A stretch of DNA of 64,000 nucleotides from Azolla caroliniana (lineage: Eukaryota; Plantae; Polypodiophyta): assembly GCA_043228905.1 (NCBI GenBank), contig JBHGNT010000014.1, forward strand, positions 6,758,001 through 6,822,000, in the 5' to 3' direction. A model generated the notes under the pieces. It saw nothing but the letters and a program-made list of their open reading frames with translations, had not been told where the DNA came from and did no database searches. Position numbers and translations under genes: made by a program. Every line of letters begins with the position of its first letter. Position 1 is the stretch's first letter. This document shows positions 1,316-57,976 of the stretch, one piece after another.

Positions 1316-1386
1316 TCCGCCCCCACCTAACCGCGCATCCTCCGGTATGCGCCAAGAGAGTTGGGACGGAGAAAACCGGCCCGTCT

Positions 1387-4884: not shown

Positions 4885-7028
4885 TCTCGGTTATCGGAAC
4901 CGAGGGATTCGCGGTTACGCTCGTGGTTCGGCCTAACCGTCAAAAACTGGACCGAATGGCGGCCGTCCTGGCTCTTGACCCGCGCATAGGCCGAACCATT
5001 GTCCAGCACCTTGGTCTCCATTCGCGCCGCCGTGATGTACGGCTCTCCCAGTATGACCGGATGCGAAGACGTCTCCTGCACGAAGAAGCGCTGGTCAATC
5101 TCGACGTCGCCGATCTTGACTCGCACATTCGGACAGGCCCCGTGCAGTTCCTCGGTGGCGCGCGTTGCTGCCCTTATTTTCCACCCGTGCTTGGTGTTGA
5201 TCGGCCATTTGCCCTTCTTATAGAAGTCCATGGACATCAAATTGATCTCCGATCCGTGGTCCACCAAAGCTATCACCGGTTCCTGGACATCGCCGATCTT
5301 CACCGGGGTTTCCGTGGTCGCTCGGGCCCAGTGCGGTCTCGAATAGTGGCTTTCCGCCCACTCGTCTCCCAGCGCCATGTCGTCTAGGTGCGTCGTCCGC
5401 ACTTCCACCGGTCTTTTCGGTTCTGTCTCCGTTGACAGCCTCTTCCGTTTCACCAAGTCCACGATGGAGTCGTGGAACTCCTTCTTGGCGATTCCAAGCA
5501 CCTCCCGTAGCGACAGCTCCACCTTGCTGTCGAGGATCCGTTCCTCCAGGACCTTTCGTAAGTCCGTGGTTCTTTCTATCTCCGTCCCCAGACGGTACCC
5601 GCCCTTCTGGGGTTTATCTTGCGTACCGGCCCTGCCGGCTTCGTCCCGTCGTGGCCCGGACCGGGTCTCGTATCGTTGTGAGGGCCCGGTCGTCCCGGGT
5701 TTTCCCACCCGCTTCTCTTCTACCAGAGCCTCGTAGTTCCGGCAAGCGGCTTCCACGAAGCCCGTCCTTTCCTCGACCGGGTCGCTCCACCCGGTCATCT
5801 CCCGTACCCGTTTCTCCGCACGGTCCGATTCCTCCCTTTTAAGCCCTGCACCGGCAAGGCCTTCCAGCATCGTCGGCCAGAATCCGGCTTTGCTTTCCTT
5901 TCGGGCCTCGCCGCCCCCGACTCGAATGCCGGCCGACGCCGAGTAGTGGACGGTTTCCGCGTGTCGGGCCGCCGCCTCTTCCATCAACCTTTTCATACCA
6001 CCCTTTCCGTCGTTTCGGCTCAGGGCCCTTCGGGTGTCGCTGGCATGCACCCGTCCTTCCCACAGGTACACCACCCGGTCCCTCAGCGCCTCCGCGAAGT
6101 CGCCGCAGTCCTTCCGAACGTGGCCGACTTCATCGCACCACATGCACCTGTTTCCTGCCGCCGGCCGTCGGTCACGAGCCGGTTCGCCTCCTTCCCTTCG
6201 GGCCTGCGCGATTTGGAGGTCCTTTATCGCCTTCGTCAATTCCTCCAGCGCCGCTCCTCCGGTTGAGCCTCTGACTACGCCGGTCGAAGCCGAACCGGTT
6301 TCCAACCACTCCCGGGTCTCTTCCTTGCGCACCTGTGGCGCTGGTTCGAGCTTCCTTGCTGCGACCGAGCCCGACCCAGTCGCCCCGTTATCCGCCCATT
6401 CTCGCCGTTTGTCGAAACGGCCACAGACCTTCCTGACAGCCGCCCAGTCGGTAGTGAGCCCGTCTTCGGTTTCCAGCAAGAGGCCCACTTGCTCCCGATC
6501 CCGCTCGTCGACCGACTTGACAAACAGCAAGACCCGGCTCGTGTCCAGGATGGTTCGGTCGAGCGCCGAAAGGCGCGCAAAGTTTTCCTCGAACTCCCGG
6601 AGGAGTGCCGACGCGTTTCTTCCCTTCCCCGGGGACTCCACCCATTCCATGAACCTTCGCTTCGAAAGCCGGAGCGCGTCGTCCAGCCCGTATTTCTCTA
6701 GGAGCCGACCTTCGAACTCCTCCCAGGTACGGCTCTCCGCCCGCACCTCGAGCACCTCCGCATGGATGCTCGGCATTGCCACTCGGGGAAAACCGGCAAG
6801 ACGCCTTTCTTCCGGAATGTCCCGCATCAACATTTCTGCACCGTAGGACGCCAGATACTTCGTGGCATCCCTCCCATCGAACCGGCCGATCGTGCCGACG
6901 ACCGCCTCAATAGCTCTGTCGAGGGCACCGGTACCCTCGCGCGCGTTTACGATCCGATCCACGGCCGAAGCCATGGCCTCTGCGAGATCCGACCCCCTCA
7001 TCTTCTGCTCTTCTGCCGCCTCTTTCAC
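4875..7028 (-). CDS. gag: B1 Gag-protease polyprotein (first ATG at 7001)
   Basis: 717-aa ORF; CCHC knuckle CMWCDEVGHVRKDC; aspartic protease motif ALVDHGSEINLM and ILGEPY. Confidence 0.92.
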   Translation of the reverse strand: MKEAAEEQKMRGSDLAEAMASAVDRIVNAREGTGALDRAIEAVVGTIGRFDGRDATKYLASYGAEMLMRDIPEERRLAGFPRVAMPSIHAEVLEVRAESRTWEEFEGRLLEKYGLDDALRLSKRRFMEWVESPGKGRNASALLREFEENFARLSALDRTILDTSRVLLFVKSVDERDREQVGLLLETEDGLTTDWAAVRKVCGRFDKRREWADNGATGSGSVAARKLEPAPQVRKEETREWLETGSASTGVVRGSTGGAALEELTKAIKDLQIAQARREGGEPARDRRPAAGNRCMWCDEVGHVRKDCGDFAEALRDRVVYLWEGRVHASDTRRALSRNDGKGGMKRLMEEAAARHAETVHYSASAGIRVGGGEARKESKAGFWPTMLEGLAGAGLKREESDRAEKRVREMTGWSDPVEERTGFVEAACRNYEALVEEKRVGKPGTTGPSQRYETRSGPRRDEAGRAGTQDKPQKGGYRLGTEIERTTDLRKVLEERILDSKVELSLREVLGIAKKEFHDSIVDLVKRKRLSTETEPKRPVEVRTTHLDDMALGDEWAESHYSRPHWARATTETPVKIGDVQEPVIALVDHGSEINLMSMDFYKKGKWPINTKHGWKIRAATRATEELHGACPNVRVKIGDVEIDQRFFVQETSSHPVILGEPYITAARMETKVLDNGSAYARVKSQDGRHSVQFLTVRPNHERNRESLGSDNREDF

Positions 7029-7041
7029 GTCGGGTTCACCA
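7025..7041 (-). promoter_or_regulatory. Primer-binding site complementary to tRNA-Trp (B1)
   Basis: TGGTGAACCCGACGTGA, 4 nt after the LTR; matches the tRNA-Trp 3' end as recalled (...UCACGUCGGGUUCACCA); the same PBS is at 21140 and 22530. Confidence 0.85.
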
Positions 7042-7045
7042 AAGA

Positions 7046-7845
7046 TGTCGAGATATTACGCAAGTGCGTGTGGAATAGAGGCGGGACCGCGGGGGTCTCG
7101 AACCAAAGAGCAAGCGAGGGAGGAGAAAGAGAGAGAACCGGCTACGCAGGACCGGGGATACACAGGGACACGGCCCTTCAGCACGGAGAACGCGAACAGA
7201 CACCGACACAGACGGATGCGAATGACTAAATATGTGTATTAACAAAATGGCTAACACGACTACAACCCCCGATGGGGCACAGGTTGGTTGCAACCGAACA
7301 GGCCGGCGAACAGATGCCGATGCCTGTTCGCTTCGACGCACAAACGGGGAAATGGGGGGGGGGTAGCAGGTCGGAGGTGCTGCCGGAAGCACTCGGGCGT
7401 TCCTCGAAACAGCGCGAGCCTCCCCGGAACCCTGCACAGAAAGCTTTGGAGCTCAAGAAGGAAGGAAACAGAGAGAGCGAAGCGTCCAGAAACGGTCCGA
7501 CAGCACTTCGTCCTCTCCGCGCCAGATCCCTGCAACAGCTCTTTCCCGCTCCTTATATAGGCCGACGAACAGGCCGTCGTGTCAGCTTTATTCCCTGTCC
7601 CTTTTGGACAGGGATCCGCTCCGTTTTTCACGGATCCGCGTAGTTACGCCGCCGACTCGTACAGTTCGCGCGCGCGACCGAAAAGACTGTTCGCGCGGTC
7701 TTTGTCTCCACTTGAGTTAGGGCCCGTTCCTGCCGATTATCCTCTCAATTCGTTTCTATGTACAACTCGGAGCGTGCGCGCGTGAAGAACCGGTTCCCAC
7801 GCCTTGGTGCGCCGATTCCGCCTATGGACGGTTTTCTTCACGACA
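7046..7845 (-). repeat. 5' LTR of B1
   Basis: 800 bp, adjacent to the PBS; TATA-like tatataag (minus strand) near 7552-7559. Confidence 0.97.
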
Positions 7846-11815: not shown

Positions 11816-11845
11816 TTTCTGTGTCGATTTCGCTCTGATACCACT

Positions 11846-12480
11846 TGTTGGGAACTTGACGTTCCTTATGTCCGACGCTCGGCCACAACCGAGATTCTTT
11901 ACATACACAGAAAAAACAGGTAATGAAACGCGACACAAAAGAGGAGAAATGGTACACAGGAGGTATACGTGGAAAACCCCAAAATAGGGGAAAAAACCAC
12001 GGCAGCCCACAAGCTGCAAACTGTCACTATTTAGAAATATACAACAGTGAGATCACTGAGGCGACGACCTCGTGCTCTCGGATCTTCGCCACAGGCGGCG
12101 GTTACAACAGAGGCAACGACCTCGTCTCTCTCTCTCTCTCTCTGTACAGTTACGTGCTCTGATTTCTTCTTGCACCAACAAGAAAGAATAACCACAAAAA
12201 TGACAACTACTCAAAAAAAAACTAAAAGTTTGCCCTAAGTCATATTTATACTAATATGACTTTTCGGCTATTTACAAATGTAGCCTCGATGGGCTCCATC
12301 CGGCTCTCCTGAGTCGGGTGCTCCTCATCCGGTTCATACCGGGCCTACACCATCCGACTCTCCGCAGTCGGGTACTCCTCATCCGGTTCATACCGTTTCG
12401 GCCTTGGCCTGTAAACCTCGGCCGAGTTTGTTCGTCGGCACTGTTCTTCTCCCTTCCCATCCGGAGGGACCTTACCAACA
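11846..12480 (-). repeat. 5' LTR of Copia A1
   Basis: 635 bp, tgttg...caaca; next to the PBS gctctgatacca; contains (CT)n and two 54-bp repeats. Confidence 0.95.
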
Positions 12481-12975
12481 GTTCCTCGTCAGGATCTGGA
12501 ACACAAACAATAGTTGGAGTGCGCAACCATGTGCGGTCCTCACCGGAGACTGGAACACGAATACCAATGGCCGTGAGTGACCATGTGTGGTCCTCATAGG
12601 GAACACGAACACCAACGGGCATGAGAGACCATATCGGTCCTCACCGAGAGTTGGAACACGAACACCAACGGGCATGAGCGACCACACAGCCCTCACTGAG
12701 AACTAGAACACAAACGGACGTGAGAGACCATGTGGCCCTCACTAAGAATTGAACAGGAACGGGCGTGAGCGACCATGCTGCCCTCACCAAGAACTGGAAT
12801 AGGAACGGACGTGCGCGACCATGTGTAGCCCTCATCGGGAACTGGAATGTGAGAGACCATGTGCGGTCCTCATCGAAAACACGAACGGGCGTGAGCGACC
12901 ATGTGGCCCTCACTGAGAACTGGAACAACAATGAACGTGAGTGACCATGCGGCCCTCACCGAGAACTGGAACAAC
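12481..12975. repeat. Tandem hairpin repeat array 1 (~10 units)
   Basis: Core GTGAG-N-GACC-ATGTGC-GGTC-CTCAC plus linker gggaactggaacacgaac; unit length ~38-54 bp. Confidence 0.9.
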
Positions 12976-13498
12976 AACGGGCGAAGGAGTGCAAGTGAAG
13001 CGGTCAACTCGACTTCTTCTATTATGAGAGGGTAAATAATCGAGGTTGACCCAAGACATGACACAAACGGTAGCGCTAGCAAGAAACCCACGCGATCCCC
13101 ACCAGGAAAGTCAGCGGTTGTGACCTCCACTGAAACTAGAAGGTGAGCAATCGAAATCGATCCTCGCCAATAGAAAGTGGCACGAGACTTGAACTATAAC
13201 GAAAATGCAGTGCAAGCGAGCAATGATCCGATCCTCACCAGGAAAGTGAGCGGTTGTGACCCCCACCGAAACTGGGAAGGTGAGCAATCGAAAGCACTTC
13301 TCACCAAAACCGTGATGCAAAATGATACCTAAAAATTGATGACGAAGATGGTTGGGCGAAGAGGTGCTTAAAATTATGATGTCGAAGACAAGGATGTTGA
13401 TGACGGTAATTCCGGAATCAAGGACGGTGATGATGGTAACTCTAGAAGCAAGGAGATGACGAAGACGGGTGGTGCTCCCAGTTGGAAGGGATTCAAAC
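12481..13498 (-). mobile_element. Internal region of non-autonomous self-priming LTR element E1 (host of A1)
   Basis: Colinear with the E2 internal region (~15790-17146); self-priming PBS 13486-13496; no protein domains. Confidence 0.8.
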
Positions 13499-13954
13499 TG
13501 GTCACGAACACACCAACCGCGGACTACGACAGAGCACGGATGATGAGGCTTTGATCGATAAGGTTACGAATGTGGAATAGGAGTTGACAAGGCTAGGAAC
13601 TCTAGAAGTTGTGCATGATGAGAACATGAACTTAGGAATCTATGGAGAGCATGACGACATAGATAAAGAAGGAGACAATATGACATGAAACAAGAATACT
13701 ACATTGATATGTCAATGATTGGTGTTGAATCCCTTGAAAGGGACCAAGGAGGTTACAAGTATTTATACTCCCGAATATTCTAGAACCCTCTAGAACCTTC
13801 TATTTCTAGAACTTTCTAAAAACTCCTAGAACTTGAAATGGATCATCTACTAAGATATACATTACTTGACCATATATTTGGATGTGTTGGTTAGAACAAA
13901 ACACTTGAGGTCAAGAGTTCAAATCTTGACATCACTGTTGTCATGTCTGTGACA
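13499..13954 (-). repeat. Chromovirus-type LTR shared by E1 and E3
   Basis: ~456 bp, ends tgtgaca; PBS on the left (13486-13496) and PPT on the right (ttatcctccccttt, from 13955); partly similar to the E2 LTRs. Confidence 0.8.
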
Positions 13955-14960
13955 TTATCCTCCCCTTTACGACCGCCTTTTCAAAAGCTTCATGGTGCAA
14001 GGGTGAGCTGAAGTACAAAACCAGAGTGGATGGATGATTGAGTGAGTCCTCACCAAAAATAGGAAGAGGAACAAATGTGGGTGACCATGTGAGGTTCTCA
14101 CTAGAGACTGGAATATCGACGGGCATGAGCGAAAATGCACACCGCCATTTCGAAAGCATCATGGTGCAAGGGTGAGCTGAAGTACAAAATAAAAGTGGAT
14201 TGACGATTGAGCGAGTCCTCACCAGAAATAGGAACAAGAACAAATGTGAGTGACCATGTGAGGTTCTCACTAGAGACTGGAATATCGACGAGCGTGAGCG
14301 ACAATGTGCAATCCTCACCGGGGATTGGAACACCAACGTGAGCGTGAGCAACCACGTTCGGTCCTCACCAGAGCCTAGAACACCAACGTGAGTGTGAGCG
14401 ACCATGTACGGTCCTCACTGGGAACTAGAACACCAACAAGCATGAGCAACCATGTGTGGTCCTCACCGGAGACTGGAACACCAACATGAGTGAGAGATTG
14501 TGTGCGGTCCTCACCGGAGACTGGAACACCAACGGACGTGAGCGACCATGTGCGGTCCTCACCGGGAACTGGAACACCAACGAACGTGAGCGACCATATG
14601 CGGACCTCACCGGAGACACGAACACCAACGGACATGAGCGACCATCTGTGGTCCTCACCGGGAACAAGAACACCAATGGGCGTGAGCAACCATGTACAGT
14701 CGTCATCGGAGACACGGACACCAACGGACATGAGAGACCATGTCGGTCCTCACCGAGAGTTGGAACATGAACATCAATGGGCATGAGCGACCATGTGCAA
14801 TCCTCACCGGGAACTGGAACACGAACAACAACGGGCATGAGCGACCATGTCGGTCCTCGTCAAGATCTGGAACACGAACAATAGTTGGAGTGAGTGACCA
14901 TGTGCGGTCCTCACCGGAGATTGGAACACGAACGGGAGTCAGCGACCATGTGTGGCCCAC
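13955..14960 (-). mobile_element. 3' internal fragment of non-autonomous element E3, with hairpin array 2 (~17 units) and a 170-bp duplication
   Basis: PPT next to the LTR; 48-bp period across 14398-14734; 13972 onward repeated at 14142. Confidence 0.75.
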
Positions 14961-17606
14961 TGTCACGGACATACCAACCACAGACTCAGATTAAGCATGG
15001 ATGATGGCGCTACAAGCGTGGAACTTAAGAAAGTGGGAACAACACAAGAGCATGAGGACAGGGATGAAGAATGAGACAAGATGGAATGGAACAAGAATAC
15101 TAGATTGATGTGTCAATGACTGGTGTTGAATCCCTTGAAAGGGAGCGAGGATGTTACAAGTATTTATCCAATTTCCGAGATTGAATATCTCTAGAATATA
15201 CTCGAGAAATATCTCGAGAATATACCCGTTTAGAATATACCACAAAATAATTCTACAATATACTAATGACTAGAATATTCTCGAATGTACTATCCACTAG
15301 ACTCTACAATATATACAGGTTCACAATCGAATGTGGATAATTCACAAGAGTTTCCATATGGATAACACAACACAATGTACTATGTGTTTTAAAGTCAGAG
15401 GATCAAGTCTAGAATGTGACATTATCCCCACTCATATGCCGCCTTCCCAAACCGGTCGTTGGCTTAAGGGGATATGTTGATGAAAATCTTAGACCACCTC
15501 CAAAGTTTTTTGTAATTCCTAGACAAGGAGTAACCCTTCCAGAAGACAAGGTATTGAACACCAACAGGCATGAGCGACCATGTGTGGTCCTCATCGGGAA
15601 CTGGAACACGAATACCAACGAGCGTGAGTGACCATGTGTGGTCCTCATGGGGAACACGAACACCAACGGACATGAGGGACCATGTCGGTCCTGGCTGAGA
15701 GTTGGAACACGACCACCAACGGGCGTGAGTAACCATGTGGGGTCACGGGGAACTAGAACATGAACAGCAACAGGCATGAGCGACCATGTCGGTCCTCGCC
15801 GGGATCTGGAACATGAACAATAGCTAGAGTGTGCGACCATGTGCAGTCCTCACCGGAGACTAGAACATGGATACCAACGGGCATGAGTGACCATGTGCGG
15901 TCCTCACAGGGAACACGAACACCAACGGGCATGAGAGACCATGTCAGTCCTCGCCAAGAGTTGGAACATGAACACCAATAGGCGTGAGCGACCATGCGGC
16001 CCTCACCAAGAATTGGAACACGAATGGATGTGAGAGACCATTGTGGCCCTCATCATGAACTGGAACGTGAGCAACCATGTGTGGCCCTCAACGGGAACTA
16101 GAACGTGAGCGACCATGTGTGGTACTCATCGAAAACACGAATGGGCGTGAGCGACCATGTGGCCCTCACCGAGAACTGAACACGAACGAACGTGAGTGAC
16201 CATGCAGCCCTCACCGAGAACTGAACACGAACAAGCATGAGTGACCATGCGGCCCTCACCGAGAACTGGAACACGAACGGACGTGCGCGACCATGCAGCC
16301 CTCACCGAGAACTGAACACGAACAGATGTGAGCGACCATGTGGGGCCTCACCGAGAACAGGAACAACGGGCGAAGGAGTGCAAGTGAAGCGGTCGACTTA
16401 ACTTCTTCTATTATGAGAGGGTAAATAGTCAAGGTTGACCCAAGACACGACACAAATGGTAGTGCTAGCGAGAAACCCACACGACCCCACCAGGAAAGTG
16501 AGCGGTTGTGACCCCCACGGAAACTAGAAGGTGAGCGATCGAAACCCTCACCGAGAACTGAACACGAACGGATGTGAGCGACCATGTGGACCCTCACCGA
16601 GAACTGGAACAACGGGCACAGGAGTGCAAGTGAAGCGGTCGACCCGACTTCTTCTATTATGAGAGGGTAAATAGTCGAGGTTGACCCAAGACACGGCACA
16701 AATGGTAGTGCTAGCGAGAAACCCACGCGACCCCACCAGGAAAGTGAGCGGTTGTGACCCCCACCGAAACTAGAAGGTGAGCGATCGAAATCGATCCTCG
16801 CCAACAGAAAGTGGTGCGAGACTTGAACTATAACGAAAATGTAGTGCAAGTGAGCAATGATCCGATCCCCACCAGGAAAGTGAGTGGTTGTGACCCCCAC
16901 CAGAACTAGGAAGGTGAGCGATCGAAATCACTCCTCACCAAAACCGTGATGCAAAATGATACCTAAAAATGATGACAAGTAGTGTTGATGACGATGATGG
17001 TTGGGCAAAGAGGTGTTGAAAATGATGACGTCGAAAACAAGGATGTTGATGACGGTAACTCCGGAAGCAATGACAGTGATGATGGTAACTCTAGAAGCAA
17101 AGGCCATCAAAGACGGGTGGTGCTTCCAGTTGGAAGGGATTCAAACTGTCACGGACACACCAACCATGGACTCGGACGAAGCATGGATGATGGCGCTACA
17201 AATGTGGAACTTAAGAAACTGGGAACGACACAAGAGCATGAGGATAGAGATGAAGAACGAGACAAGATGGAAGGGAACAAGAATACTAGATTGATGTGTC
17301 AATGACTGGTGTTGAATCCCTTAAAAGGGAGCAAGGATGTTACAAGCATTTATCCAATTTCCGAGATTGAATATCACTAGAATATACTCAAGAAATATCT
17401 TGAGAATATACCCATTTAGAATATACCACAAAATAATTCTACAATATACTAACGACTAGAATATTCTCGAATATACTATACACTGGACTCTACAATATAT
17501 ACAAGTTTAGAATTGAATGTGGACAGTTCACAAGAGTTTCCATATGGATAACACAACACAATGTATTGTGTGTTAAAAGTCAAAGGGTCGAGTCTAGAAT
17601 GTGATA
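14961..17606 (-). mobile_element. Non-autonomous self-priming LTR element E2 (~2.6 kb, non-coding)
   Basis: LTRs 14961-15421 and 17147-17606 (tgtcac...gtgaca/gtgata, visibly diverged); PPT from 15422; PBS 17134-17144; flanks differ (cccac vs gcttt), so no TSD. Confidence 0.88.
15555..16610. repeat. Tandem hairpin repeat array 3 (~18 units) inside E2
   Basis: Same core as arrays 1 and 2; followed by a ~250-bp internal duplication (~16360-16610 and ~16610-16790). Confidence 0.9.
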
Positions 17607-17955
17607 GCTTTATATAGTCACCCCCCTCTCTTTTCATTAACTAACTACAACAACCACTCTCTTGGGGAATGTGGAGACCCATTAGTCATGGGGAATATGA
17701 AACTCATTAGTTATGTGTCATTAGTTATGATTCTATGACACATAGTTATTGTGTGGAGAGTGGTATGACTCTTGACTCAAATGGAGACCCATTAGTCATG
17801 GGGAATATGAAACTCATTAGTTATGTGTCATTACGTATGATTCTATGACACATAGTTATTGTGTAAAGAGTGGTATGACTCTTGACCTTTGAGTGCTCAT
17901 AGATGCTCAAAGGGTATGTTCACACACAACGTTAGGTTGACCTTGATTCTCAACA
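17607..17955 (-). repeat. 3' LTR of F, truncated, with a 110-bp tandem duplication
   Basis: Matches 60936-61172; 17672 onward is repeated at 17782. Confidence 0.9.
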
Positions 17956-39307: not shown

Positions 39308-39761
39308 TGTCATGAATGTTCATGACCATTATGGCGTCACCCGGACTTGAACCTCGAACCTTGTAATCCATACTTGAAAACCTCAACCATTAAGATAGCT
39401 TATTGTTATATGAAACAATAAAAGCTACTTCTTGTATTACATTGATTATTGTAAAAACTCTAGATTATTCTAGAATGTTCTAGAATGTCCAAGAGCATTC
39501 TAGGTCTAGAACATTCTAGAACATTCTAGAAATCTCTAAGCTATTCTATAGGAACCTATAAATAAGGGCATACATGTATTCTCAAATCAATTCAAATCAA
39601 CACCAGTCTTTAGCTCTCATTACATACCTTGTATCCATTCTCTTTCTTTCTCTATCTTATACATCCATTCTTCTCTTAGTATTTGATTCCATTCTTCTCG
39701 TGTTCTCTAATATCCTTCTTCCATCACTCTATCTTTTATCCTTGGTTCTGACAGTTTGATT

Positions 39762-39818
<57 letters not shown>

Positions 39819-42800
39819 CCTCCTTTGTAACCATCCTGAAACCATGGTTGCCATTAACTCAGAAGAATATCTCACCCTTGTTGCAGAAATGGAGAACCTT
39901 AAATCCAAGTTCGCATCTCTTGAAGTAGAGAATCAACGTCTACTTGGGGATCTACAAAAGGTTACTATAGAGAAGCAACAACAACAAGAGGAGTTCACGC
40001 GACGAGTGCAACAGTTAGAGTCGACAATCGTTGTGTTACAACAACAAAGGGTTGAAGGTCAGGGACTTATCAAGGAGCCCAAAATTAGCCTCACAAATAA
40101 CAAGATCAAGATTCACACCAACTTATGCATCAGTAACGGCGCAATCATCCCCAAGGCAAATGTATAGCCCTACTCCAACTCCAAGGCAAACACGTAGTCC
40201 AGTCCCAATGGATAGTCCTGCACCCATGGAGATCAACATGACTCAACGACGAGGACCATTTTCAGACGAAGAGAAGCAACGTCGTCAAGCAAACCATCTG
40301 TGTTTATATTGCAGAGGTCCAGGACATATAGCCATTCATTGCTCCCGTAGGCCGAGACGTCAGGTAAATCAAATTCACTACGTCAATAAAAATGAGTCCA
40401 ACATTTTAGAAGCAGTTAGTGAATCTAATATTATGAATAATCCACCCTTGTCCAATAAATTTGAAGTCCTAAGCCAATTAGAAGAGGAGTCAAACGAATA
40501 AGTCCGGCCAAAATAGGAGCCATTTGGTTGGACAACCCTAGATATGTACAACCTAGTGTGGGTTCCATTTCTTCCAAGCATGTTAGTAGAGTCTTCTCAG
40601 CCCTAGTACAAGTTAGGACACCCAGTTGTCAACTTCAAGTCCAAGCCCTCTTAGATACTGGAGCCAATTCTTGTTTCATGGATAGAGATTTTGCCCAAAA
40701 ACACCAAATATCCTTGCATACACTTCCTTGTCCAGTTTCCGTAGTAGTGATTGATGGACGCCCCATAGCTTCCGGGAAGATATTTGAAGAGTCTGAGCCA
40801 ATACACATACTCTTGGGTGATTTAGGATGTGTAGTTTCCTTTAACATAATCCGTAGTCCTGAGCATCCAATTGTCCTCGGTTTGCCATGGTTCGAGCTAC
40901 ATAACCCTAGAATCGATTGGAGGAAGCGAGAAATTAGGTGCCCTTTAGCAGAAAATATCATTGTCAAGGATCAAACTCGGGATTATCCTCCTAAAGTATA
41001 TAGTTCTACCGATGCACCATATCCTTCTCATCAAATTTCAGCCATCACATTGCAACAATTGTGCCGAGTGGGAGGCAAGGAGGACCTTTTCTTATTTGCA
41101 GTATCAGTGACACCTTCTAGTGTCACTCAAGGGAATTCAGACATCCAAATTCCCAAAAAATATCAAGACTATGTTGATGTTTTCGACAAAGTCAAAGCTA
41201 GTGTTCTTCCAAACCATCAGCCGTACGACTGTCCTATTGATCTCCAACCAGGAAAAGAGCCACCGTGGGGTCCGATTTACAATTTATCACCCACTGAGCT
41301 TGAGGTTCTTCGAGAATACATCGAGGAAAATCTTGCACATGGGTTTATTCGACATTCAAAGTCTCCAGCTGGTGCTCCTATCTTTTTTGTGAAGTAAAAG
41401 GACGGCTCCCTTCGTTTGGTCGTGGACTAACGAGGCTTAAATAAAGTCACCATAAGGAATAGGTATGCTTTACCTTTAATCTCCAATCTCTTAGAACGCA
41501 TTGGTAGGGCAAAGCATTTTACCAAAATTGATCTAAGGGGTGCATATAATCTTGTTCGAATTCGGCCGGGAGATGAGTGGAAAACAACATTTCGTACTCG
41601 ATATGGTCATTTCGAGTATACAGTCATGCATTTCGGGCTCACAAATGCACCTGCAGTATTCCAACATATGGCAAATGACATCTTCCGGGATTTCTTGGAT
41701 ATTTTTCTAATCTACCTAGATGATCTATTGATTTACTCTAAAACACAGGGGGAGCATGATATACATGTGCGGCAAGTACTTGAATGCCTAAGGAAGTATG
41801 GTCTTTATGCCAAACTTGAGAAATGCAGTTTTGATTGCAAACAGGTCGAATTTTTGGGATACACTATTTCATCCCAGGGTGTTTTCATGGACCCGGCAAA
41901 AGTCCAAACAATATTGGAATGGAAACCCCCATGCTCAGTTCGGGATGTCCAGTGTTTCCTCGGATTTGCGAACTTCTATCGCAAATTCATACATAATTAT
42001 TCAAGCATTGTGTTGCCCCTTACTCAACTCACCAAGAAAAATCAAGCATTTTTTTGGAGTATCGAAGCGGACAAGGCTTTTACGCAGCTGAAAGAGGCAT
42101 TCACATCAGCACCCATCCTAGCACATATTGATCCTGAAAAGCCATTTACTATTGAGGCGGATGCATCAGACTTTGCATTGGGGAGTATCCTATCGCAACC
42201 AGGCGAGGACGGGCAGACACATCCAGTCGCGTTTCACTCGAGAAAATTTACTGTTTCGGAGATAAACTATGAGGTGCATGACAAGGAGTTACTAGCTGTG
42301 GTCGACTCATTCAAGCAATGGCGTCATTTTCTAGAAGGATCACCTCATCAGATTATCATTTATAGTGATCACAAAAATCTCACATATTTTCAAACAGCTC
42401 GAGTATTAAATAGACGACAAGCTCGGTGGGCCCAATTTCTAACGCGTTTCGATTTCAAGATCATTTTTCGCCCCGGAAAACAACAAGGGAAAGCAGATGC
42501 TCTGTCTCGGCGTTCGTATCTGCACTTCGACCTGGAGATCCAACCTTTGACAATCAAAAGCAAACTCTCCTCGGGCCATCAAAGCTACAGGTAACAACAA
42601 TTTATGCCACGCCACTTGATTCTACCCTTCTTGACACTATTCGGCAACAACTTTATTCGGATGATTTTGCTAAGGATGTCTTAGCCCACTATGGTTCAAG
42701 TCGTCCATCTTGCTCCACATTGTCAGGGTCATCTCAACATTATCAGGACTTCAAGTGGCAAGATGGCTTACTCTTCTACAAGAATCTCCTTTACGTCCCC

Positions 42801-44607
42801 AACGGATCACCCCGACTTCAAGTGTTGGAACATTGTCATGATGCCCCCATTGCTGGACATTTTGGTATTTCGAAGACCATTGAGCTGGTGAAACGTTCGT
42901 TTTGGTGGCCTCACTTGCAAAAATTTGTCGAAGATTATGTTCGCACTTGTGACACCTGCTGTCGCACCAAAGTACCCCGGCATCACCCTTATGGCTTACT
43001 ACAACCATTACCCCCTCCCAACACGCCATGGCAGTCTATTTCTATGGATTTCATTACGGATCTGCCACCTTCCAAAGGCTTTGATACTATTTTAACAGTA
43101 GTGGATCGGTTCACCAAGATGGCACATTTTGTACCATGTGTAAAGACCATCAATAGTGAAGAAACTACAGATCTCATTATGCGTGAAGTGTTTCGCCATC
43201 ATGGTCTCCCGAATGATATTATTAGCGATCGAGGTCCTCAATTTATCTCACACTTTTGGAAGCACCTATGGGCAGGCCTCAAAATCTCTTGCAAACTCTC
43301 TTCGGCTTATCATCCACAAATTGACAGACAAACAGAGCGCACAAATCAAATGCTCAAGCAATATCTTCGATGTTTCATTAGTTATCAACAAGATGATTGG
43401 AGTAATATTTTACATCTTGCCGAGTTTGCATACAACAACACGGTCCACTCTTCTACCAAAGTTACACCTTTCTTTGCCTACACCGGCAACCACCCTCGAT
43501 GGTGTATACTGGATCTTCCCGAGGTGTCACGAAACCCTAGTGCGGCGCATCACCTCCATCGACTACAACAAATCCAGTTCGAGTTATCGTCACATCTTCA
43601 GAAAACGCAAGCACACCATAAGACCAATGCCGATCGACATCGTCTTAAGTCTCCGTTTAAGGTTGGTGACCGTGTATGGTTGCTTCGTCGTCACATCAAG
43701 ACTACCCAACCGTGTGCTAAGCTTGACTATCAACGCTTAGGTCCTTTTGTCATCACGGCACAGATTAATGATGCAACATTTCGTCTTAACCTTCCTACGC
43801 ATATGCGGCTTCACCCTGTCTTTCATAGCTCTCTTTTGGAACCTTGTCGCACCTCTTTAATTCCTAATCGTGTCGTGCCACCACCACCTTTTGTACAACT
43901 TGTGGACGGCCCCGAATTCGAGGTAGCTGCTATTCTAAGATTGTGCGCAATAAGCTTTATTATCTAGTTGATTGGCTTGGCTATCCTCCGAGTGATCGCA
44001 CTTGGGAGCCCATCGATAACGTTTGTAATGCTGAAGCTCTGGTCAACGACTTCCATCGTCACTATCCAAACAAGCCCGGCCTAACAATGTTAATGCCGAC
44101 TTCCATTCGAGAAATAACAATGTTAATGCCGACTTCCACTCGGCGTTCTCGAAGGAGGGATAATGTCATGAACACATGACCATTATGGCATCACCCGGAC
44201 TTGAACCTCGAACCTTGTAATCCATACTTGAAAACCTCAACCATTAAGATAGCTTATTGTTATATGAAACAATAAAAGCTACTTCTTGTATTACATTGAT
44301 TATTGTAAAAACTCTAGATTATTCTAGAATGCTCTAGAATGTCCTAGAGCATTCTAGGTCTAGAACATTCTAGAACATTCTAGAAATCTCTAAGCTATTC
44401 TATAGGAACCTATAAATAAGGGCATACATGTATTCTCAAATCAATTCAAATCAACACCGGTCTTTAGCTCTCATTACATACCTTGTATCCATTCTCTTTC
44501 TTTCTCTATCTTATACATCCATTCTTCTCTTAGTATTTGATTCCATTCTTCTCGTGTTCTCTAATATCCTTCTTCCATCACTCTATCTTTTATCCTTGGT
44601 TCTGACA
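39308..44607 (+). mobile_element. Chromoviral Ty3/Gypsy H1 (Tcn1/Tf1-like), defective
   Basis: LTRs 39308-39753 and 44164-44607; TSD aacat/gacat; self-priming PBS 39756-39767; PPT 44151-44163; chromodomain remnant YYLVDWLGY..DRTWEP. Confidence 0.95.
39844..44179 (+). pseudogene. H1 gag (capsid core deleted at ~40092) and pol with stops and frameshifts
   Basis: LLDTGAN protease; YLDD; RH; integrase; chromodomain. Stops at 41395 and 41428; frameshifts near 42525 and 43940. Confidence 0.92.
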
Positions 44608-44612
44608 GACAT

Positions 44613-51446: not shown

Positions 51447-52038
51447 CTCCGCCCTACCTTGCTGCCAAAGATGTCGCGGTATTCCGCGAGTACGTGTTGT
51501 CGTGACTCTTGAGTAGGAAGCAGAGAGAGAGAGCGATGGCGATAGAGATAACGATAATGATAGAGATGGCGAGAGCGGTAGAGATAGCGATAGTGATAGA
51601 AAGAGAGTGAAAGAGGGAGAGAGTGTGAAAGAGAGAAAAGTATAAGTGAGAGATAAGAAATGGGAATGCGATTATATTATGAGAAAGAAGATTACAAGGA
51701 GTAGGCTAAGGGCTAAAGACTGGTGTTGAACCGAATGAGTTGTGATGAGTGTATGGACTCTTATTTATAGGCCCTTATGGAGTATTCTAGAATGTTCTAG
51801 AATATTTTAGATATTTATGAATAATAATAATAATAAATATAATCATGAAATATTCAAGAACATTCTAGAATAATCTAGAATGTTCTAAATATCTCGTAAT
51901 AACTAAACATATAATTATTATGATTACATCTCACATATGTTATTACAATGGTTAAAGTACAATATGTAAACCAAGAGGTTATGGGTTCGATTCCTGGTTC
52001 GCCAAGATGAATGTCATGATAAGCCAAGATGTATGTCT

Positions 52039-55000
52039 TCATGACATTATCCCCCCTTTTCGATGACGAGTTGCACGAGTCGGAAGAAAAGAGTTCAGAC
52101 TTGGTTTATGAGGATATTGGTTGTGAAATGCAACAACCATGTCGGAGGCATTGGCAAGATGTTCGGCAGGCTCCCATGTTCGATCATTAGGTGTATAGCC
52201 TAACCAATCAACCAAGTAGTATAGTTTGTTGCGAATGATCTTGGAGTCGAGGATAGCGGCAACCTCATATTCAGAGCCATTGGAAACGTCAATTGGAGGT
52301 GGGGGAGGTGTAACACGACCCGGAATAGAGCTCGTTGTGTAAGGCTCCAAAAGTGAAACATGGAAGACCGGGTGAAGACGCATATGAGGAGGAAGATCAA
52401 GACGAAATGTCACATCATTGATCTTACCACTTATGACATATGGGCCAAAACGTTGATAATCCAATTTGTAGCAAGGTCGGGTCGTTTTAATGCTACCTTG
52501 TAAGAGCCATACACGATCGCCTACTTGAAATGTAGTCGATGAATCACGGCGATGACGGTTAGCAATCTTCTTTTGAGTGTTTTGGGCTTCACATAAATGA
52601 TGCAAAAGCATATCCTGAACTTCTTGGAGTCGAGTGAGCCGATCTTCAGCAGCTGGGTTTTTTGGGAGTTCAGGATGTTCAAGCATCGTCCAACGAGGAT
52701 GGTACCCAATGTTTGCAAAAAATGGGGAATATCCAGTAGAAGAATGCTCGGAGTTGTTATAAGCAAATTCTGCCAAAGGTAGTAAATCCACCCAATCATC
52801 TTGTTGATAGTTAACAAAACAACGTAGATATTGCTCGACTGTTTGGTTGGTGCGCTCACTCTGCCCATTAGTCTCTGGATGGTAGCCGGAAGAGAGTTTA
52901 CAAGAAGTATGTAAGAGTCTGAACATGTGCCGCCAAAATTTCGAGATGAATTGGGACCCCGATCACTGATAATATCATCCGGAAGACCATGATGGCGAAA
53001 CACCTCCCGCATGAGTAAATCAGCTGTCTCTTGACTAGTAATGGTCTTTGTGCATGGAAGGAAATGTGCCATCTTCGTAAAACGATCGACAACCGTGAGA
53101 ATCGAATCAAATCCCTTGGAAGGTGGAAGATCCGTAATAAAGTCCAAGGAAATAGATTTCCATGGGCTCTCCGGAATAGGCATTGGCTGTAATAAGCCAT
53201 ATGGATGATGTCGAGGCTTTTTTGATCGGCAACATGTATCACAGCTACGAACATAATCCGTAACAAAATGGCGAAGCCGTGGCCACCAATATCGGCGAGA
53301 AATCAACTCAAAAGTCTTGTGGATGCCGAAGTGTCCCGCCATTGGTGTGTCATGACATTGTTGCATGACTTTGAGTCGAGAAGGACCGTCAGGCACATAC
53401 AAGAGAGTTTGTCGAAAAAGTAACCCATCATGCCAACTAAACTGGGTGTAGTCTAGACGAGGATTTTGAGTTTGGGAGCTAGATGCACGATTTGGGATAA
53501 TATGGCTCAAAACCTCTTGGGCGAACGCATCAGTCGCAATCTGCTCACGAATGGAATCAAGAAGCCTTGAATCTCCCGGTGTGTTGATGGTATGCATTGC
53601 CATTATTCGTAGACGATCAGGACCTAAGAGGATTTGCTTTTGGCTTTCAAATGCGGCCTCTCCAGGTTGAAGTTCCATATACGAACGTCTAGATAAAGCA
53701 TCTGCTTTTCCTTGTTGCATCCCAGGGCGATATAGAATTACAAAATCGAAACGAGTTAAGAACTGCGCCCAACGAGCTTGTCGTCGATTCAAGACTCGAG
53801 CACTTTGAAAGTATGTTAGATTTTTATGATCATTGTAGACAATAATCTGCTGAGAAGAACCCTCCAGAAAATGACGCCATTGTTGAAAAGAATCCACAAT
53901 GGCAAGAAGCTCTTTGTCGTGAATCTCATAGTTGATTTCTGCGGCTTCAAATTTTCGTGAGTGAAAAGCCACCGGGTGCAGTTCACCATCATCACCAATT
54001 TGGGATAGTACACTTCCGAGTGCGAAATCCGATGCATCAGCTTCAAGTATAAAGCGCCTCATTGGATCGACATGGATTAAGATTGGTGCGGATGTAAATG
54101 CTTGCTTTAAACCCTCAAATGCAGAGTTCGCATCTATACTCCATACAAATGATCGATTCTTGTGCGTCAGTTGAGTGAGGGGCAACACAATTTTTGAATA
54201 GTCTTTGATGAACTTGCGATAAAAGTTTGCGAACCCCAAAAAACATTGCACATCTCGCACGGACTGTGGTGTTTGCCAATCCAAAATTGTTTGAACCTTT
54301 GATGGATCCATAGAGATGCCATTTGAAGAGACTATGTACCCCAAAAACTCCACTTGACGTTGGTCGAAACTACACTTCTCCAATTTTGCATAGAGACCAT
54401 ACTCTCGTAGCCGTTGCAAAACTTGGCGAACATGTATATCATGTTCTTCTTGAGTTTTTGAGTAGATCAAGATATCATCCAGGTAAACAATGATGAAGAT
54501 ATCGAGGAAGTCTCGAAAAATATCATTCGCCATATGTTGGAAGACTGCTGGTGCATTCGTGAGGCCAAAAGGCATCACTGTGTACTCAAAATGACCATAG
54601 CGAGTGCGGAACGCCGTCTTCCATTCATCCCCAGGACGAATTCGAACAAGGTTGTAGGCACCTCGAAGATCTAACTTCGTGAAATACTTTGCTTCACTGA
54701 GGCGTTCTAGAAGGCTTGAGATCAATGGGAGAGCATATCGGTTTCTAACGGTCACTTTATTCAAGCCTCGATAATCCACGACCATACGAAGCGTACCATC
54801 TTTCTTCTTAACGAAAAAGATGGGTGCACCAGCAGGAGATTTTGAATGTTGGATAAAACCATTTGCCAAGTTCTCATTGATATATTCTCGAAGAACCTCT
54901 AACTCCGTGGGCGAAAGATTATAAATTGGTCCCCATGGAGGCTCTTTTCCTGGCTGCAAATCAATTGGGCAATCATATGGTCGATGCTCTGGTAGTCTAT

Positions 55001-55682
55001 TAGCCTTCACCTTATCGAACACATCGGAGAATTCTATGTACTTCTTTGGTAGTTGGACCCCCAATTCTTGTGAGCTAGATGAGGGAGTTGCTAAAACCGC
55101 AAATACCATCATGTCTTCCTTTCTTCCATCCTCTCGTAATTGATGTATAGAGATTGTTGAAATTGTGGGGGATCCTAGATCCTTAGTTGGAGCTTCAAGA
55201 GACTTGGATTGTACGGTGACCTCTTCAATAGTTCTTTTTCTCCAATCAATGGTTGGGTTATGTAACTCAAACCAAGGAAGACCAAGAACTAGAGAGTGCT
55301 CCGGACTACTAATGATGTTAAATGAGATGACACTAGCCAAATTACCTAGGACTACACGAATTGGTTCAGACTCTTCGACTATATCTCCTGATGCTATAGG
55401 GCGACCATTGATGACTCCTACAGCTACTGGGTTTGGGAGTTTTTTCAAGATGATGTTTTGAGTCAATGCAAACTCGCGATCCATGAAACAAGAATTGGCT
55501 CCGGAATCTAGGAGGGCAGAGGCTAGGGCGCGATGACCTGTAGATGTGCTAAGCTCGACTTGTGCAGAAAAAACTCTACTAACTTGATTTGATGAAATGG
55601 AACCACAACTAGGTACTGACTCTACATAACTAGGATGGTCCAACCAAATGGCTCCTATTTTGGCCGGACTTATTCGTTTAAC
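52039..55682 (-). CDS. pol: H2 pol (PR-RT-RH-IN-chromodomain) with one 1-bp frameshift at ~52953
   Basis: LLDSGAN; YLDD; ADASD; HHCC; GPY; EYEVAAILDS...YLVDWLGY...TWEP. DRGP|QF is broken by a missing C. Confidence 0.88.
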
Positions 55683-56797
55683 ACATCCTCTAATTGGCTC
55701 AAGACATCAAATCTATTCTCATGGCATGGGCTAGTAGGCTTAGTACTTAAGTTATTAGAAGTGATAGTAGAACTTGATGTAGGGTTGTCATGTGCACTTA
55801 CTTGGTAAACTTGACGCCTGGGTTTATGTGGACAATTCACAGCTATATGTCCTGGACCACCACAGTAGAGGCATAGGCGATGCGCCCGACGTCGTTGTTT
55901 CTCAGCATCTGATAAGGGCCCTCGACGTTGTGTCGACTCTATTTCCATCGGAGTGGGACCATCCCTCGTAACGGGTCTAGAACCTTGTGGCGGTGTGGCG
56001 ACTATAGAAGCGTATGTCTGTTCCGGTTGGCGGCGTAACATTTGTTGACGTTCAGAACGTCGCTCAAATAGGCGATTATCACATCGCACAGCTCGGCTAA
56101 TAGCTTCAGTAAGAGACTTTGGATCTTCATGGAAAGTAAGAAGAAGATCTTTGACATCGTTACGCAAACCCTGACGGAATTGATCCATTAAGGCTGCCTC
56201 ATCCCAAGGGATGTCGCATGCCAAGAGACGGAAATCTGCGGCATAAGCTGAAGCGGGACGATCTCCTTGTCGGAGTCTTCGAATCTTGTTTATTGCAGTC
56301 CTAGTGCTATCCGTATCTCCAAAACTAGCTTGAAACTCCTTAACGAATGCCTCGAAATCCTCCAGTAATGGTGATTTCTTCTCAAGAAGTGGTGCAAACC
56401 ATGCTAACGCTGTACCGCTTAGCAAGGTTCCTATTAATCCCACACGGGCAGCATCAGTTGGATACCGATTGGGATGTAACTGAATCACCAAACGAACTTG
56501 ATTCAGGAAACCTCGAAAGAGAGATCTGGTACCATCAAACTTGGCAGGGAGGCTAATCTTTGGTTCCCTTGGGGAGTTTTGAACCCCCGCCGCTTGTTCT
56601 CGTAATGTTAATATAGTAGCCTCAAGTTGATGAACCCGTTGTGATAACTCCTCATATTGATGAGCTTTCTCAGTACTGACTTGTTGAAGATCCCCGAGTA
56701 GCCTTTGATTTTCTTGCTCTAATGCCACAAACTTAATGGTGAGCATATCGAGCTCCGAAAGGACACGCATATACTCTTGCTTGCTGACCGACTCCAT
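55670..56797 (-). CDS. gag: H2 Gag (resembles PEG10/Sushi-type Gag)
   Basis: 375 aa; coiled N-terminus; P.KFDG; LRQG; CLYCGGPGHIAVNC. Confidence 0.93.
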   Translation of the reverse strand: MESVSKQEYMRVLSELDMLTIKFVALEQENQRLLGDLQQVSTEKAHQYEELSQRVHQLEATILTLREQAAGVQNSPREPKISLPAKFDGTRSLFRGFLNQVRLVIQLHPNRYPTDAARVGLIGTLLSGTALAWFAPLLEKKSPLLEDFEAFVKEFQASFGDTDSTRTAINKIRRLRQGDRPASAYAADFRLLACDIPWDEAALMDQFRQGLRNDVKDLLLTFHEDPKSLTEAISRAVRCDNRLFERRSERQQMLRRQPEQTYASIVATPPQGSRPVTRDGPTPMEIESTQRRGPLSDAEKQRRRAHRLCLYCGGPGHIAVNCPHKPRRQVYQVSAHDNPTSSSTITSNNLSTKPTSPCHENRFDVLSQLEDVLNE

Positions 56798-57976
56798 AAC
56801 CGCGGGGGAAAAAGAAAGAAGGATAAAGAAGAAAGCTTGCTAGAGTTATTGGAGAAAGGGAAAAGAAATATTCGGTTCAAACTGTCGTGACTCTTGAGTA
56901 GGAAGCAGAGAGAGAGAGCGATGGCGATAGAGATAACGATAATGATAGAGATGGCGAGAGCGGTAGAGATAGCGATAGTGATAGAAAGAGAGTGAAAGAG
57001 GGAGAGAGTGCGAAAGAGAGAAAAGTATAAGTGAGAGATAAGAAATGGGAATGCGATTATATTATGAGAAAGAAGATTACAAGGAGTAGGCTAAGGGCTA
57101 AAGACTGGTGTTGAACCGAATGAGTTGTGATGAGTGTATGGACTCTTATTTATAGGCCCTTATGGAGTATTCTAGAATGTTCTAGAATATTTTAGATATT
57201 TATGAATAATAATAATAATAAATATAATCATGAAATATTCAAGAACATTCTAGAATAATCTAGAATGTTCTAAATATCTCGTAATAACTAAACATATAAT
57301 TATTATGATTACATCTCACATATGTTATTACAATGGTTAAAGTACAATATGTAAACCAAGAGGTTATGGGTTCGATTCCTGGTTCGCCAAGATGAATGTC
57401 ATGATAAGCCAAGATGTATGTCTTCATGACACGTGTAAGATCTTAGGCGGGACCGCGGGGGTCTTGGACTAGGGAGTAGAGGGGGAATGGAAGCTTAACT
57501 CGAGGGGGGGGAGAAAGAATAGGACATAAACATAGAATGGATGGAGGCAAGATACACAAACGAGTTATATTCAGAAACACCAAACGCTTTACAACCATGG
57601 CCGCATAGGCCGAGCGAAAACACTATATGGAACCCTAACCGGATAAGTAAAGTAAAGAAGATGATGAAGAAGAAACCCTAAACCCGAAATGGTATGAAGA
57701 AGAAGAAGAATAGTAAAACCCTAAACGAAACCCTAAAACCGAAATACAAACCCTCGACCTAAGGGGTATACCTCTGTCACTCAAAATAGGCAACCCCTTC
57801 ACAAGAGATCCCTCCCTTCCTTTTATAGCCCAAGGAGGGAGGGACGTTACAATGTAGGATAAATTCTCCCCCTTATTCTATACATCATTTTCCTACTATA
57901 CATGTGCACATGTTGAACATTGCTGACTTGCCCATTCCATCCCGGTTTCACACCAAAACCAGAAATCTTCACTACA

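What the first reader, a model, noticed from the sequence alone, without database searches (positions are those of the whole stretch)
12481..16610. Non-coding self-priming retroelements whose cargo is an array of ~45 bulged RNA hairpins
Seen: three arrays (~10, ~17 and ~18 units by manual count). The consensus unit GTGAG-N-GACC-ATGTGC-GGTC-CTCAC folds into a 5-bp stem, a single bulge, a 4-bp stem and a ~6-nt loop. The bulge base takes all four nucleotides (gagCgacc, gagTgacc, gagAgacc, gagGgacc), one unit shows ATGAG/CTCAT (~15570), and linker length varies. Many units carry GGCC in place of GGTC, so pairing is not perfect throughout. The elements have LTR, PBS and PPT but no protein domains. 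Inference: a non-autonomous parasite of the chromoviruses may use a multivalent hairpin array, like an MS2-operator array, to compete for Gag packaging, or to act as a protein sponge or small-RNA source.
Basis: partly seen in the sequence, partly recalled or inferred. Interest (0 to 1): 0.72.

Follow-up and report, generated by a model that had tools for sequence, protein, structure and literature searches.

The report
Self-priming parasite retroelement with hairpin array
These are copies of a small, protein-free plant jumping-gene family (hundreds of copies) that likely primes its own copying and borrows enzymes from related elements; it carries a repeat array of small predicted RNA hairpins that are modestly conserved and would most likely act as redundant handles for the helper's packaging protein, a role that is untested.

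Summary
The arrays are real: 40 strict units, about 45 with degenerate ones; 1,487 perfect hairpins genome-wide against 0 for the reversed control. The elements run on the minus strand, where the bulge is 3'-sided and mostly G. Its 'all four bases' is largely CpG decay, and GGCC is a G·U pair. They belong to a non-autonomous, Tcn1-type family with at least 205 primer sites. Self-priming is well supported: primer and PBS covary across six lineages, and 13 genomic chimeras join the primer to inverted U5. Only element A is complete. Hairpin function is moderately supported: shared transversions hit 0 of 18 stem and 7 of 23 linker columns, and 33 of 35 sampled PBS-to-PPT spans keep 4 or more units. 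Against it: no compensatory excess inside arrays, folding no better than shuffles, type-level covariation p=0.19, and no such hairpin in the window's two autonomous chromoviruses. So it is not an amplified copy of their packaging signal. Internal minisatellites in plant LTR elements are known; their function is not. The scan's earlier notes held nothing on this. Verdict: new variant of a known kind, interest 0.4.

The parts
17147..17606 (-). Element A 5' LTR (A-type U3, R, U5)
   Evidence: 91.8% identical to 14961-15421; termini read
17312..17322 (-). Self-primer: predicted first 11 nt of the transcript, about 25 nt behind a TATA-like box
   Evidence: 11-nt exact complement of the PBS; start site inferred
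17134..17146 (-). Element A primer-binding site, complementary to the R start; the tRNA-Met PBS motif is absent here
16714..16938 (-). Six diverged leader hairpins H1-H6 (two triplets), an older part of the same repeat
16637..16686 (.). Unrelated 13-bp bulged inverted repeat 'K' (second copy 16391-16440, in a 246-bp duplication 16299-16790)
   Evidence: folds better antisense
15556..16351 (-). Hairpin array of element A (16 strict units plus 1 degenerate)
15422..15433 (-). Polypurine tract of element A
   Evidence: same form as PPTs of the two autonomous elements
14961..15421 (-). Element A 3' LTR
14246..14960 (-). Hairpin array of 5'-truncated element C (14 strict units plus a partial one), abutting A's 3' LTR
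13955..14245 (-). 3' end of element C: 169-bp duplication with degenerate units, and PPT at 13955-13969
13499..13954 (-). Shared LTR: 3' LTR of C (C-type U3) and 5' LTR of B; self-primer at 13725-13735
   Evidence: B's own 3' U3 at L011 is A-type
13486..13498 (-). Element B primer-binding site
13079..13304 (-). Leader hairpins H1-H6 of element B; 'K' inverted repeat follows at 13002-13051
12481..12959 (-). Hairpin array of element B (10 strict units), cut by a copia insertion; 6 more units at L011:9438-9720
11846..12480 (-). 5' LTR of the Ty1/copia element that interrupts array B (tRNA-Met-type PBS at 11843)
39308..44608 (+). Coding self-priming chromovirus H39 (candidate helper class; no array hairpin)
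51498..57431 (-). Coding self-priming chromovirus H51, LTRs 99.8% identical, chromodomain (candidate helper class; no array hairpin)

Best explanation
This is a family of small, protein-free LTR retroelements that likely primes its own reverse transcription and likely borrows Gag, RT and integrase from Tcn1-type chromoviruses; its internal minisatellite likely grew by template switching, and its 25-nt predicted bulged hairpin would act on the element RNA as a weak, redundant handle for the helper's Gag/nucleocapsid. Shown: LTR-PBS-leader-array-PPT-LTR anatomy, no coding, 5-bp target duplications, primer/PBS complementarity, 4-29 units per element, hairpin segment more conserved than linker. 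Inferred: transcript start, trans-mobilisation, growth by template switching, and selection on the hairpin. Untested: folding in vivo and Gag binding. Confidence in the element's identity and self-priming is about 0.9; the figure given is for the whole statement, including the packaging-handle role.
For: Identity: LTR pairs 85-96% identical (median 92.6%) in 24 elements, 12 of 24 with a target duplication matching at 4-5 of 5 bases; termini, PPT and the motif after the primer match the coding chromoviruses. Self-priming: six different primer/PBS pairs of 11-12 nt (5 of 8 gag-proximal PBS sites had the complement in the stretch examined); 12 of 13 hits of one pattern, plus L159, read U3, primer, then inverted U5-R, with at least 11 different end points. 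Hairpin constraint: shared transversions in 0 of 18 stem and 7 of 23 linker columns (p=0.011; rank test p=0.0014); six common linker lengths and three loop lengths around an unchanged stem-bulge register; 33 of 35 PBS-to-PPT spans picked by PBS alone hold 4-29 units, and the other two look interrupted by insertions, although leader class and U3 type vary; diverged leader units keep 67 of 72 pairs on the RNA strand, with A-U to G-C and C-G to U-A changes; covariation score 0.327 against 0.255, 1 of 500 shuffles, on 15 hand-picked, related rows.
Against: Double changes inside arrays are close to independence expectation at all 9 pairs (largest excess 93 vs 76 and 13 vs 6.9). A unit folds no better than shuffles (z -0.17 and -0.28; median z -0.41 over 40 array windows). 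Type-level arm permutation p=0.19; pairs with double change 3 vs 2.4. Pair-breaking variants were amplified: C·A at pair 2 in 109 of 1,241 units, G·A in 31 of 51 H1, two C·A in most H4, and some shared hairpin-destroying units among 84 missed slots. The loop CAT and the linker GTGTT are as conserved as the stems, so conservation may be of sequence. Several of the 7 linker columns belong to one subtype, and stems were used for detection. No coding element examined carries the hairpin or this primer. About 20 of 66 leaders lack H1-H6. Unrelated repeats in the window also form hairpins.
Confidence: 0.42

Rival explanations
1. The array is a neutral minisatellite. A quasi-palindrome makes RT pause and switch templates, which multiplies and homogenises the unit; pairing persists through palindrome correction and a transition-dominated mutation spectrum.
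For: No compensatory excess; z near 0; permutation p=0.19; unit number 4-29; the 'K' inverted repeat favours the antisense strand (median z -2.74 vs -1.18); the copia LTR 54-bp repeat and the 110-bp repeat also fold into hairpins; the family shows frequent template-switch chimeras. Internal tandem arrays occur in about half of Retand elements, function unknown (PMC11963269, passages).
Against: Stems lack shared transversions while linkers have them; the array is kept in 33 of 35 spans while other modules are swapped or deleted, down to a 291-bp interior with 4 units; type-level wobble favours the RNA strand 10 G·U to 4 A·C, not independent and not significant.
Confidence: 0.33
2. The unit is a palindromic DNA site, repeated to recruit a host or element protein (enhancer, anti-silencing or chromatin function); the RNA hairpin is incidental.
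For: Conservation covers the whole 25-nt motif, including the loop CAT; no covariation.
Against: Loop lengths of 4, 5 and 6 change the half-site spacing; leader units keep pairing but change sequence; units are full of decayed CpG/CHG sites, so they were methylated.
Confidence: 0.1
3. The array is a splice-signal decoy. On the RNA the 5' arm resembles a 5' splice site, the 3' arm a branch point, and the linker a pyrimidine tract with YAG (consensus motifs recalled). U1 binding or masking would protect the RNA from early polyadenylation or splicing.
For: GT donor in 843 of 1,241 units, YAG at -9..-7 in 537, both in 391.
Against: Shared subtypes lack the GT or the AG; donor-to-branch distance is only about 20 nt; one precise-join pattern hit in all loci, though a retroelement would fix spliced forms.
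Confidence: 0.07
4. The array is a small-RNA source or a sponge for a host RNA-binding protein, as the first reader also suggested.
For: Multivalent identical motif; high copy number.
Against: 9-bp stems are too short for Dicer-like processing (general knowledge); no Rfam match; no benefit to the element was identified.
Confidence: 0.05

Closest known systems
Tcn1 clade chromoviruses (Tf1/Sushi group); PMC6317226, passages read; PMC2864245, passages read
   Same: PBS complementary to the LTR R start, PPT and TG...CA ends; 5-bp target duplication; the window's coding relative H51 has a chromodomain (Pfam Chromo).
   Different: No gag or pol. PMC6317226 predicts self-priming from sequence, and PMC2864245 found no evidence of it in SM-Tcn1; here covarying primers and primer-inverted-U5 chimeras support it. 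Non-autonomous Tcn1 derivatives were not found in my searches.
Internal tandem-repeat arrays of Retand, Ogre/Gmr9 and Grande (PMC11963269 and PMC3305785, passages read; PMC7004042, listing only)
   Same: Family-specific, length-variable minisatellite of 38-54 bp just upstream of the PPT, with interleaved unit types; function unknown.
   Different: Those are large non-chromovirus elements. Here the array is most of the interior of a 2-2.7 kb element. The words hairpin and secondary structure do not occur in either paper's main text.
LARD, TRIM and Cassandra non-autonomous plant LTR elements (definitions recalled; Cassandra preprint 10.1101/2023.07.14.548913 seen as listing and abstract start)
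   Same: Non-coding, two LTRs, PBS and PPT, mobilised in trans; LARDs are recalled to have a structured internal domain, Cassandra a Pol III promoter in the LTR.
   Different: Size lies between TRIM and LARD (LTR about 420-535 bp); self-primed rather than tRNA-primed; no 5S match.
MS2/PP7 operator arrays and retroviral psi stem-loops; VL30 (recalled; PMC9450689 listing only)
   Same: Small bulged stem-loops, repeated, in a parasite RNA downstream of the PBS.
   Different: No binding data; the candidate helpers lack the motif; stem mismatches are tolerated in amplified lineages.

Membership tests
Non-autonomous LTR retrotransposon | Two LTRs with TG...CA ends, PBS and PPT | tested here: met
   Element A; 24 two-LTR copies. 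B and C are partial.
Non-autonomous LTR retrotransposon | Integrase-type 5-bp target-site duplication | tested here: met
   12 of 24 at 4-5 of 5 bases by an automatic call; none for window element A
Non-autonomous LTR retrotransposon | No gag/pol coding in the interior | tested here: met
   No Pfam hit in four frames; interiors 0.3-3.0 kb; Gag/Pol hits near PBS sites were antisense, distant matches or a nested element with its own LTR and PBS (rows L107-L120 were cut from view)
Non-autonomous LTR retrotransposon | Mobilised in trans by a named helper | not testable with these tools
   No coding element with this primer among 97 PBS sites plus 5 variants
Tcn1 / Tf1-type self-priming chromovirus lineage | PBS complementary to the 5' end of the element's own transcript | tested here: met
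   11-nt complement behind a TATA-like box; covarying pairs in five coding elements; 13 chimeras. Transcript start not mapped.
Tcn1 / Tf1-type self-priming chromovirus lineage | RT phylogeny places it in Tcn1 | not tested
   The element has no RT; no tree was built for H39 or H51
Tcn1 / Tf1-type self-priming chromovirus lineage | Chromodomain with aromatic cage in the coding relatives | tested here: inconclusive
   Pfam Chromo E=4e-12 in H51; Tyr/Trp/Tyr seen by eye at cage-like places, not aligned to a reference
TRIM | Terminal repeats about 100-250 bp, interior about 100-300 bp (recalled) | tested here: not met
   LTR about 420-535 bp, interior 740-2,637 bp in 24 copies
LARD | Multi-kb LTRs and conserved multi-kb interior (recalled) | tested here: not met
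Cassandra | 5S rRNA-derived segment in the LTR | tested here: not met
   No 5S hit to E=5 over 12400-17700
Conserved structured RNA element | Significant compensatory covariation | tested here: inconclusive
   None within arrays; across types p=0.19; score 1/500 on related rows but pair count 231/500
Conserved structured RNA element | Folding energy below shuffled controls | tested here: not met
   z -0.17 and -0.28 per unit; 2 of 40 array windows below -2. One leader copy gave -4.75, but the median of 5 was -0.93
Conserved structured RNA element | Stems more conserved than linkers | tested here: met
   0 of 18 vs 7 of 23 columns, p=0.011, with non-independence caveats
MS2-operator-like amplified packaging signal | Same hairpin present once in the helper RNA | tested here: not met
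   No motif hit in H39 or H51; one unrelated hit elsewhere in the window. The true helper may be another family.
MS2-operator-like amplified packaging signal | Specific binding by the capsid/Gag protein | not testable with these tools
   needs an in vitro binding assay

The most novel reading that the evidence does not exclude
A retroelement parasite has evolved, de novo, a multivalent array of bulged RNA hairpins that out-competes its helper's RNA for Gag. It is the one module kept while U3, leader and 3' end are freely swapped. That would give the first function for internal minisatellites of plant LTR elements, and the family also preserves fossils of self-primed reverse transcription.
Probability: 0.25. 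Interest if true: 0.72.

Novelty: new variant of a known kind. Interest (0 to 1): 0.4.

Why it matters
Internal tandem arrays are common in plant LTR retrotransposons and their function is stated to be unknown (PMC11963269, PMC3305785; passages). This family strips the question down to LTRs, a short leader and the array, with natural variants of 4-29 units, so a packaging role is directly testable in vitro. Separately, covarying primers and 13 primer/inverted-U5 chimeras give genomic evidence for self-priming in plant Tcn1-type elements, which PMC6317226 predicted from sequence and PMC2864245 did not find in SM-Tcn1. If the array is neutral, the element is an ordinary non-autonomous family.

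Tried and rejected
Expression: no RNA holder listed; seven short contigs of a guessed-RNA run lay on the element at under 95% identity, which is no evidence either way. Runs labelled organisms C and D held small shares of words but covered all 30 bins when laid at 80%; this gave no usable covariation. Rfam: no match for the element, no tRNA match for two U3 regions; ARAGORN found 0 genes. Antisense ORF: class-2 leaders look Asp/Lys/Arg-rich on the opposite strand, but the register shifts at shared places and every frame holds stops; rejected. G·U versus A·C in arrays (1,056 vs 485) was dropped as evidence, because CpG/CHG context explains most of it. The first leader alignment mixed two leader classes and is void. 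The permutation used a wrong H4 and was redone. The H4 table includes a few non-family rows. The idea of fold-back solo LTRs with two U3 arms failed. Helper search by PBS variants found none. Literature: searches found no description of this family, of hairpin arrays in non-autonomous chromoviruses, or of the chimeras. The library lacks most subscription papers, and I read no supplements; Additional files 1 and 5 of PMC6317226 list PBS types and may bear on self-priming. Earlier scan notes held nothing on this element.
Full report
OBSERVATION. The three arrays are present and far beyond chance: 54 motif matches against 17.2 expected in the window, and 1,487 perfect hairpins in the 523-Mb genome against 0 for the reversed pattern. 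A fixed-stem detector finds 40 units in the window; degenerate ones bring the count to about 45.

ANATOMY. PPTs at 15422-15433 and 13955-13969, and PBS sites at 17134-17146 and 13486-13498, put all three elements on the minus strand. Element A (14961-17606) is complete, with LTRs 91.8% identical. Element B starts at the LTR 13499-13954 and is cut at 12481 by a Ty1/copia element with a 5-bp duplication; six more units, the PPT and part of a U3 lie left of the window in L011. Element C is a 3' half that shares the 13499-13954 LTR with B. The composite sits inside a copia LTR whose two halves flank it. Four long frames in the interiors have no Pfam domain.

FAMILY. There are 205 exact LTR-PBS junctions and 467 exact R starts, lower bounds given the divergence. 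I fetched 120 stretches. In 24 copies with two alignable LTRs, identity is 85-96% (median 92.6%), and 12 of 24 have a target duplication matching at 4-5 of 5 bases; no young copy was seen. The family is modular. At least three unrelated U3 types and several 3' ends occur. Two leader classes occur: 43 of 66 carry diverged hairpins H1-H6, and about 20 of the other 23 carry a C/U-rich filler instead. Among 62 sites picked by PBS alone, 35 reach a PPT-like site within 3 kb; 33 of these hold 4-29 units, and the two others look interrupted by insertions. Of the rest, 18 had no family PPT within 3 kb and 9 were inverted-primer junctions. Contigs from runs with two other species labels cover the whole element.

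SELF-PRIMING. The PBS is an 11-nt complement of the sequence about 25 nt behind the TATA-like box. Five of eight gag-proximal PBS sites of coding chromoviruses show the same relation with different sequences, giving six covarying pairs. Twelve of 13 hits of one junction pattern, plus L159, read U3, primer, then an inverted U5-R piece reaching 34-231 nt, followed in the loci viewed by a switch back to sense sequence. They carry different U3 types and at least 11 end points. I infer template switching at the primer/PBS register during reverse transcription; local inversion between short inverted repeats could explain some, such as L154. PMC6317226 (passages) reports that most Tcn1 elements lack tRNA PBSs, are predicted to self-prime, and occur in mosses and club-mosses. 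PMC2864245 (passages) found no priming evidence in SM-Tcn1. The Tf1 mechanism itself is recalled. H51 carries a chromodomain. I therefore read the family as a non-autonomous Tcn1-type derivative in a likely non-seed plant; no RT tree was built. No coding element with this primer was found among 97 PBS sites and 5 variants (part was cut from view and is covered).

THE HAIRPIN ON THE CORRECT STRAND. On the element RNA the unit is a 5-bp stem, a 4-bp stem, a 4-6-nt loop and a 3'-side bulge. In 1,241 units from 115 arrays the bulge is G 64.5%, A 21.3%, U 12.4% and C 1.8%. The A is CpG decay, and U is the majority base in only one subtype. GGCC is a G·U pair. All nine pairs form in 597 units on the RNA strand and in 333 on the antisense strand, but methylation context explains most of this difference.

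FOR CONSTRAINT. Transversions at 5% or more occur in 0 of 18 stem and 7 of 23 linker columns (Fisher p=0.011; rank test p=0.0014). Class by class, shared non-deamination variants fall in 4 of 144 stem, 44 of 181 linker and 2 of 43 loop columns (columns not independent). Linkers come in six common lengths and loops in three, with the stem-bulge register unchanged. Nine unit types keep 67 of 72 pairs on the RNA strand (57 Watson-Crick, 10 G·U, 4 A·C, 1 other), including A-U to G-C and C-G to U-A changes. On 15 hand-picked, related rows the covariation score was 0.327 against 0.255 (1 of 500 shuffles).

AGAINST CONSTRAINT. Double changes within arrays are near independence expectation. Units fold no better than shuffles. 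Permuting arms among types gives p=0.19, and pairs with double change are 3 against 2.4. Mismatched variants were amplified: C·A at pair 2 in 109 of 1,241 units, G·A in 31 of 51 H1, two C·A in most H4. Eighty-four of 1,126 neighbouring pairs have a missed unit between them, a few shared between copies. The loop CAT and linker GTGTT are as conserved as the stems. The 'K' inverted repeat in the same leader prefers the antisense strand, and unrelated repeats in the window also form hairpins. Unit number does not track LTR identity (rho 0.23, p=0.28). H39 and H51 lack the motif.

MECHANISM. Inferred: a Pol II transcript starts at the primer, which pairs with the PBS; the helper's RT copies it, and integrase inserts it. 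Template switching shuffles modules and changes unit number. The 25-nt hairpin segment is under weak purifying selection, as expected for a redundant cis signal. In an RNA with no other job, the most likely job is recruiting the helper's Gag/nucleocapsid (0.42). A neutral palindrome-driven minisatellite is close behind (0.33). A DNA protein-site array (0.10), a splice decoy (0.07) and a small-RNA or sponge role (0.05) trail.

COMPARISON AND NOVELTY. Family-specific internal arrays are known in Retand and Gmr9/Ogre, with unknown function (PMC11963269 and PMC3305785, passages). Non-autonomous LTR elements are known (TRIM, LARD, Cassandra; definitions recalled), but this one fits none by size or LTR content. 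Eight literature searches found no account of this combination; most subscription papers and all supplements were unseen. Verdict: new variant of a known kind, interest 0.4; the multivalent packaging reading has probability 0.25 and would merit 0.72.

Noticed in passing
L143, L145-L155, L159 (e.g. G000:C2:10831366, G000:C14:17331072): LTR chimeras reading U3, self-primer, inverted U5-R of 34-231 nt, then a switch back; likely fossils of self-primed reverse transcription. 11 of 97 sampled PBS sites are of this kind.
   Followed up: partly
window 15330-15421, 13860-13954, 17520-17606, 39320-39400, 57330-57420; U3 starts of many loci: All U3 types, coding and non-coding, carry near the LTR 5' end an antisense pair of A-box-like and B-box-like motifs (consensus recalled), tRNA-like in H39 and H51. 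ARAGORN and Rfam do not call a tRNA. Possible Pol III promoter or TFIIIC boundary, as 5S in Cassandra.
   Followed up: partly
L086, L088, L090, L096, L100, L115 and others, PBS to array: Second leader class: 450-800 nt of C/U-rich triplet-like filler that reads Asp/Lys/Arg-rich antisense but is not one ORF; similar repeats lie in the R-U5 of H51.
   Followed up: partly
window 13002-13051, 16391-16440, 16637-16686: A separate 13-bp bulged inverted repeat between leader and array, found in 36 copies; it folds better on the antisense strand.
   Followed up: yes
window 167-322, 12300-12400, 26986-27152, 36080-36243: Copia LTRs carry a 54-bp tandem repeat whose unit also forms small hairpins.
   Followed up: partly
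window 51498-57431: Chromovirus H51 has LTRs 99.8% identical, so it is a recent insertion; H39 LTRs are 98.2% identical.
   Followed up: no
window 516-7845: A gypsy element with DUF4100 in its Gag-like frame and 99.9% identical 800-bp LTRs is nested in the copia that cuts array B.
   Followed up: no
window 17606-17955 and L011:8850-9075: The whole A-C-B composite is inserted in a copia LTR (homologue at 60712-61173); the left junction is truncated, with no target duplication.
   Followed up: partly
L059, L030, L024, L110: Clusters of several short family copies in tandem or head-to-head, with arrays of up to 33 units; possible satellite seeds.
   Followed up: no
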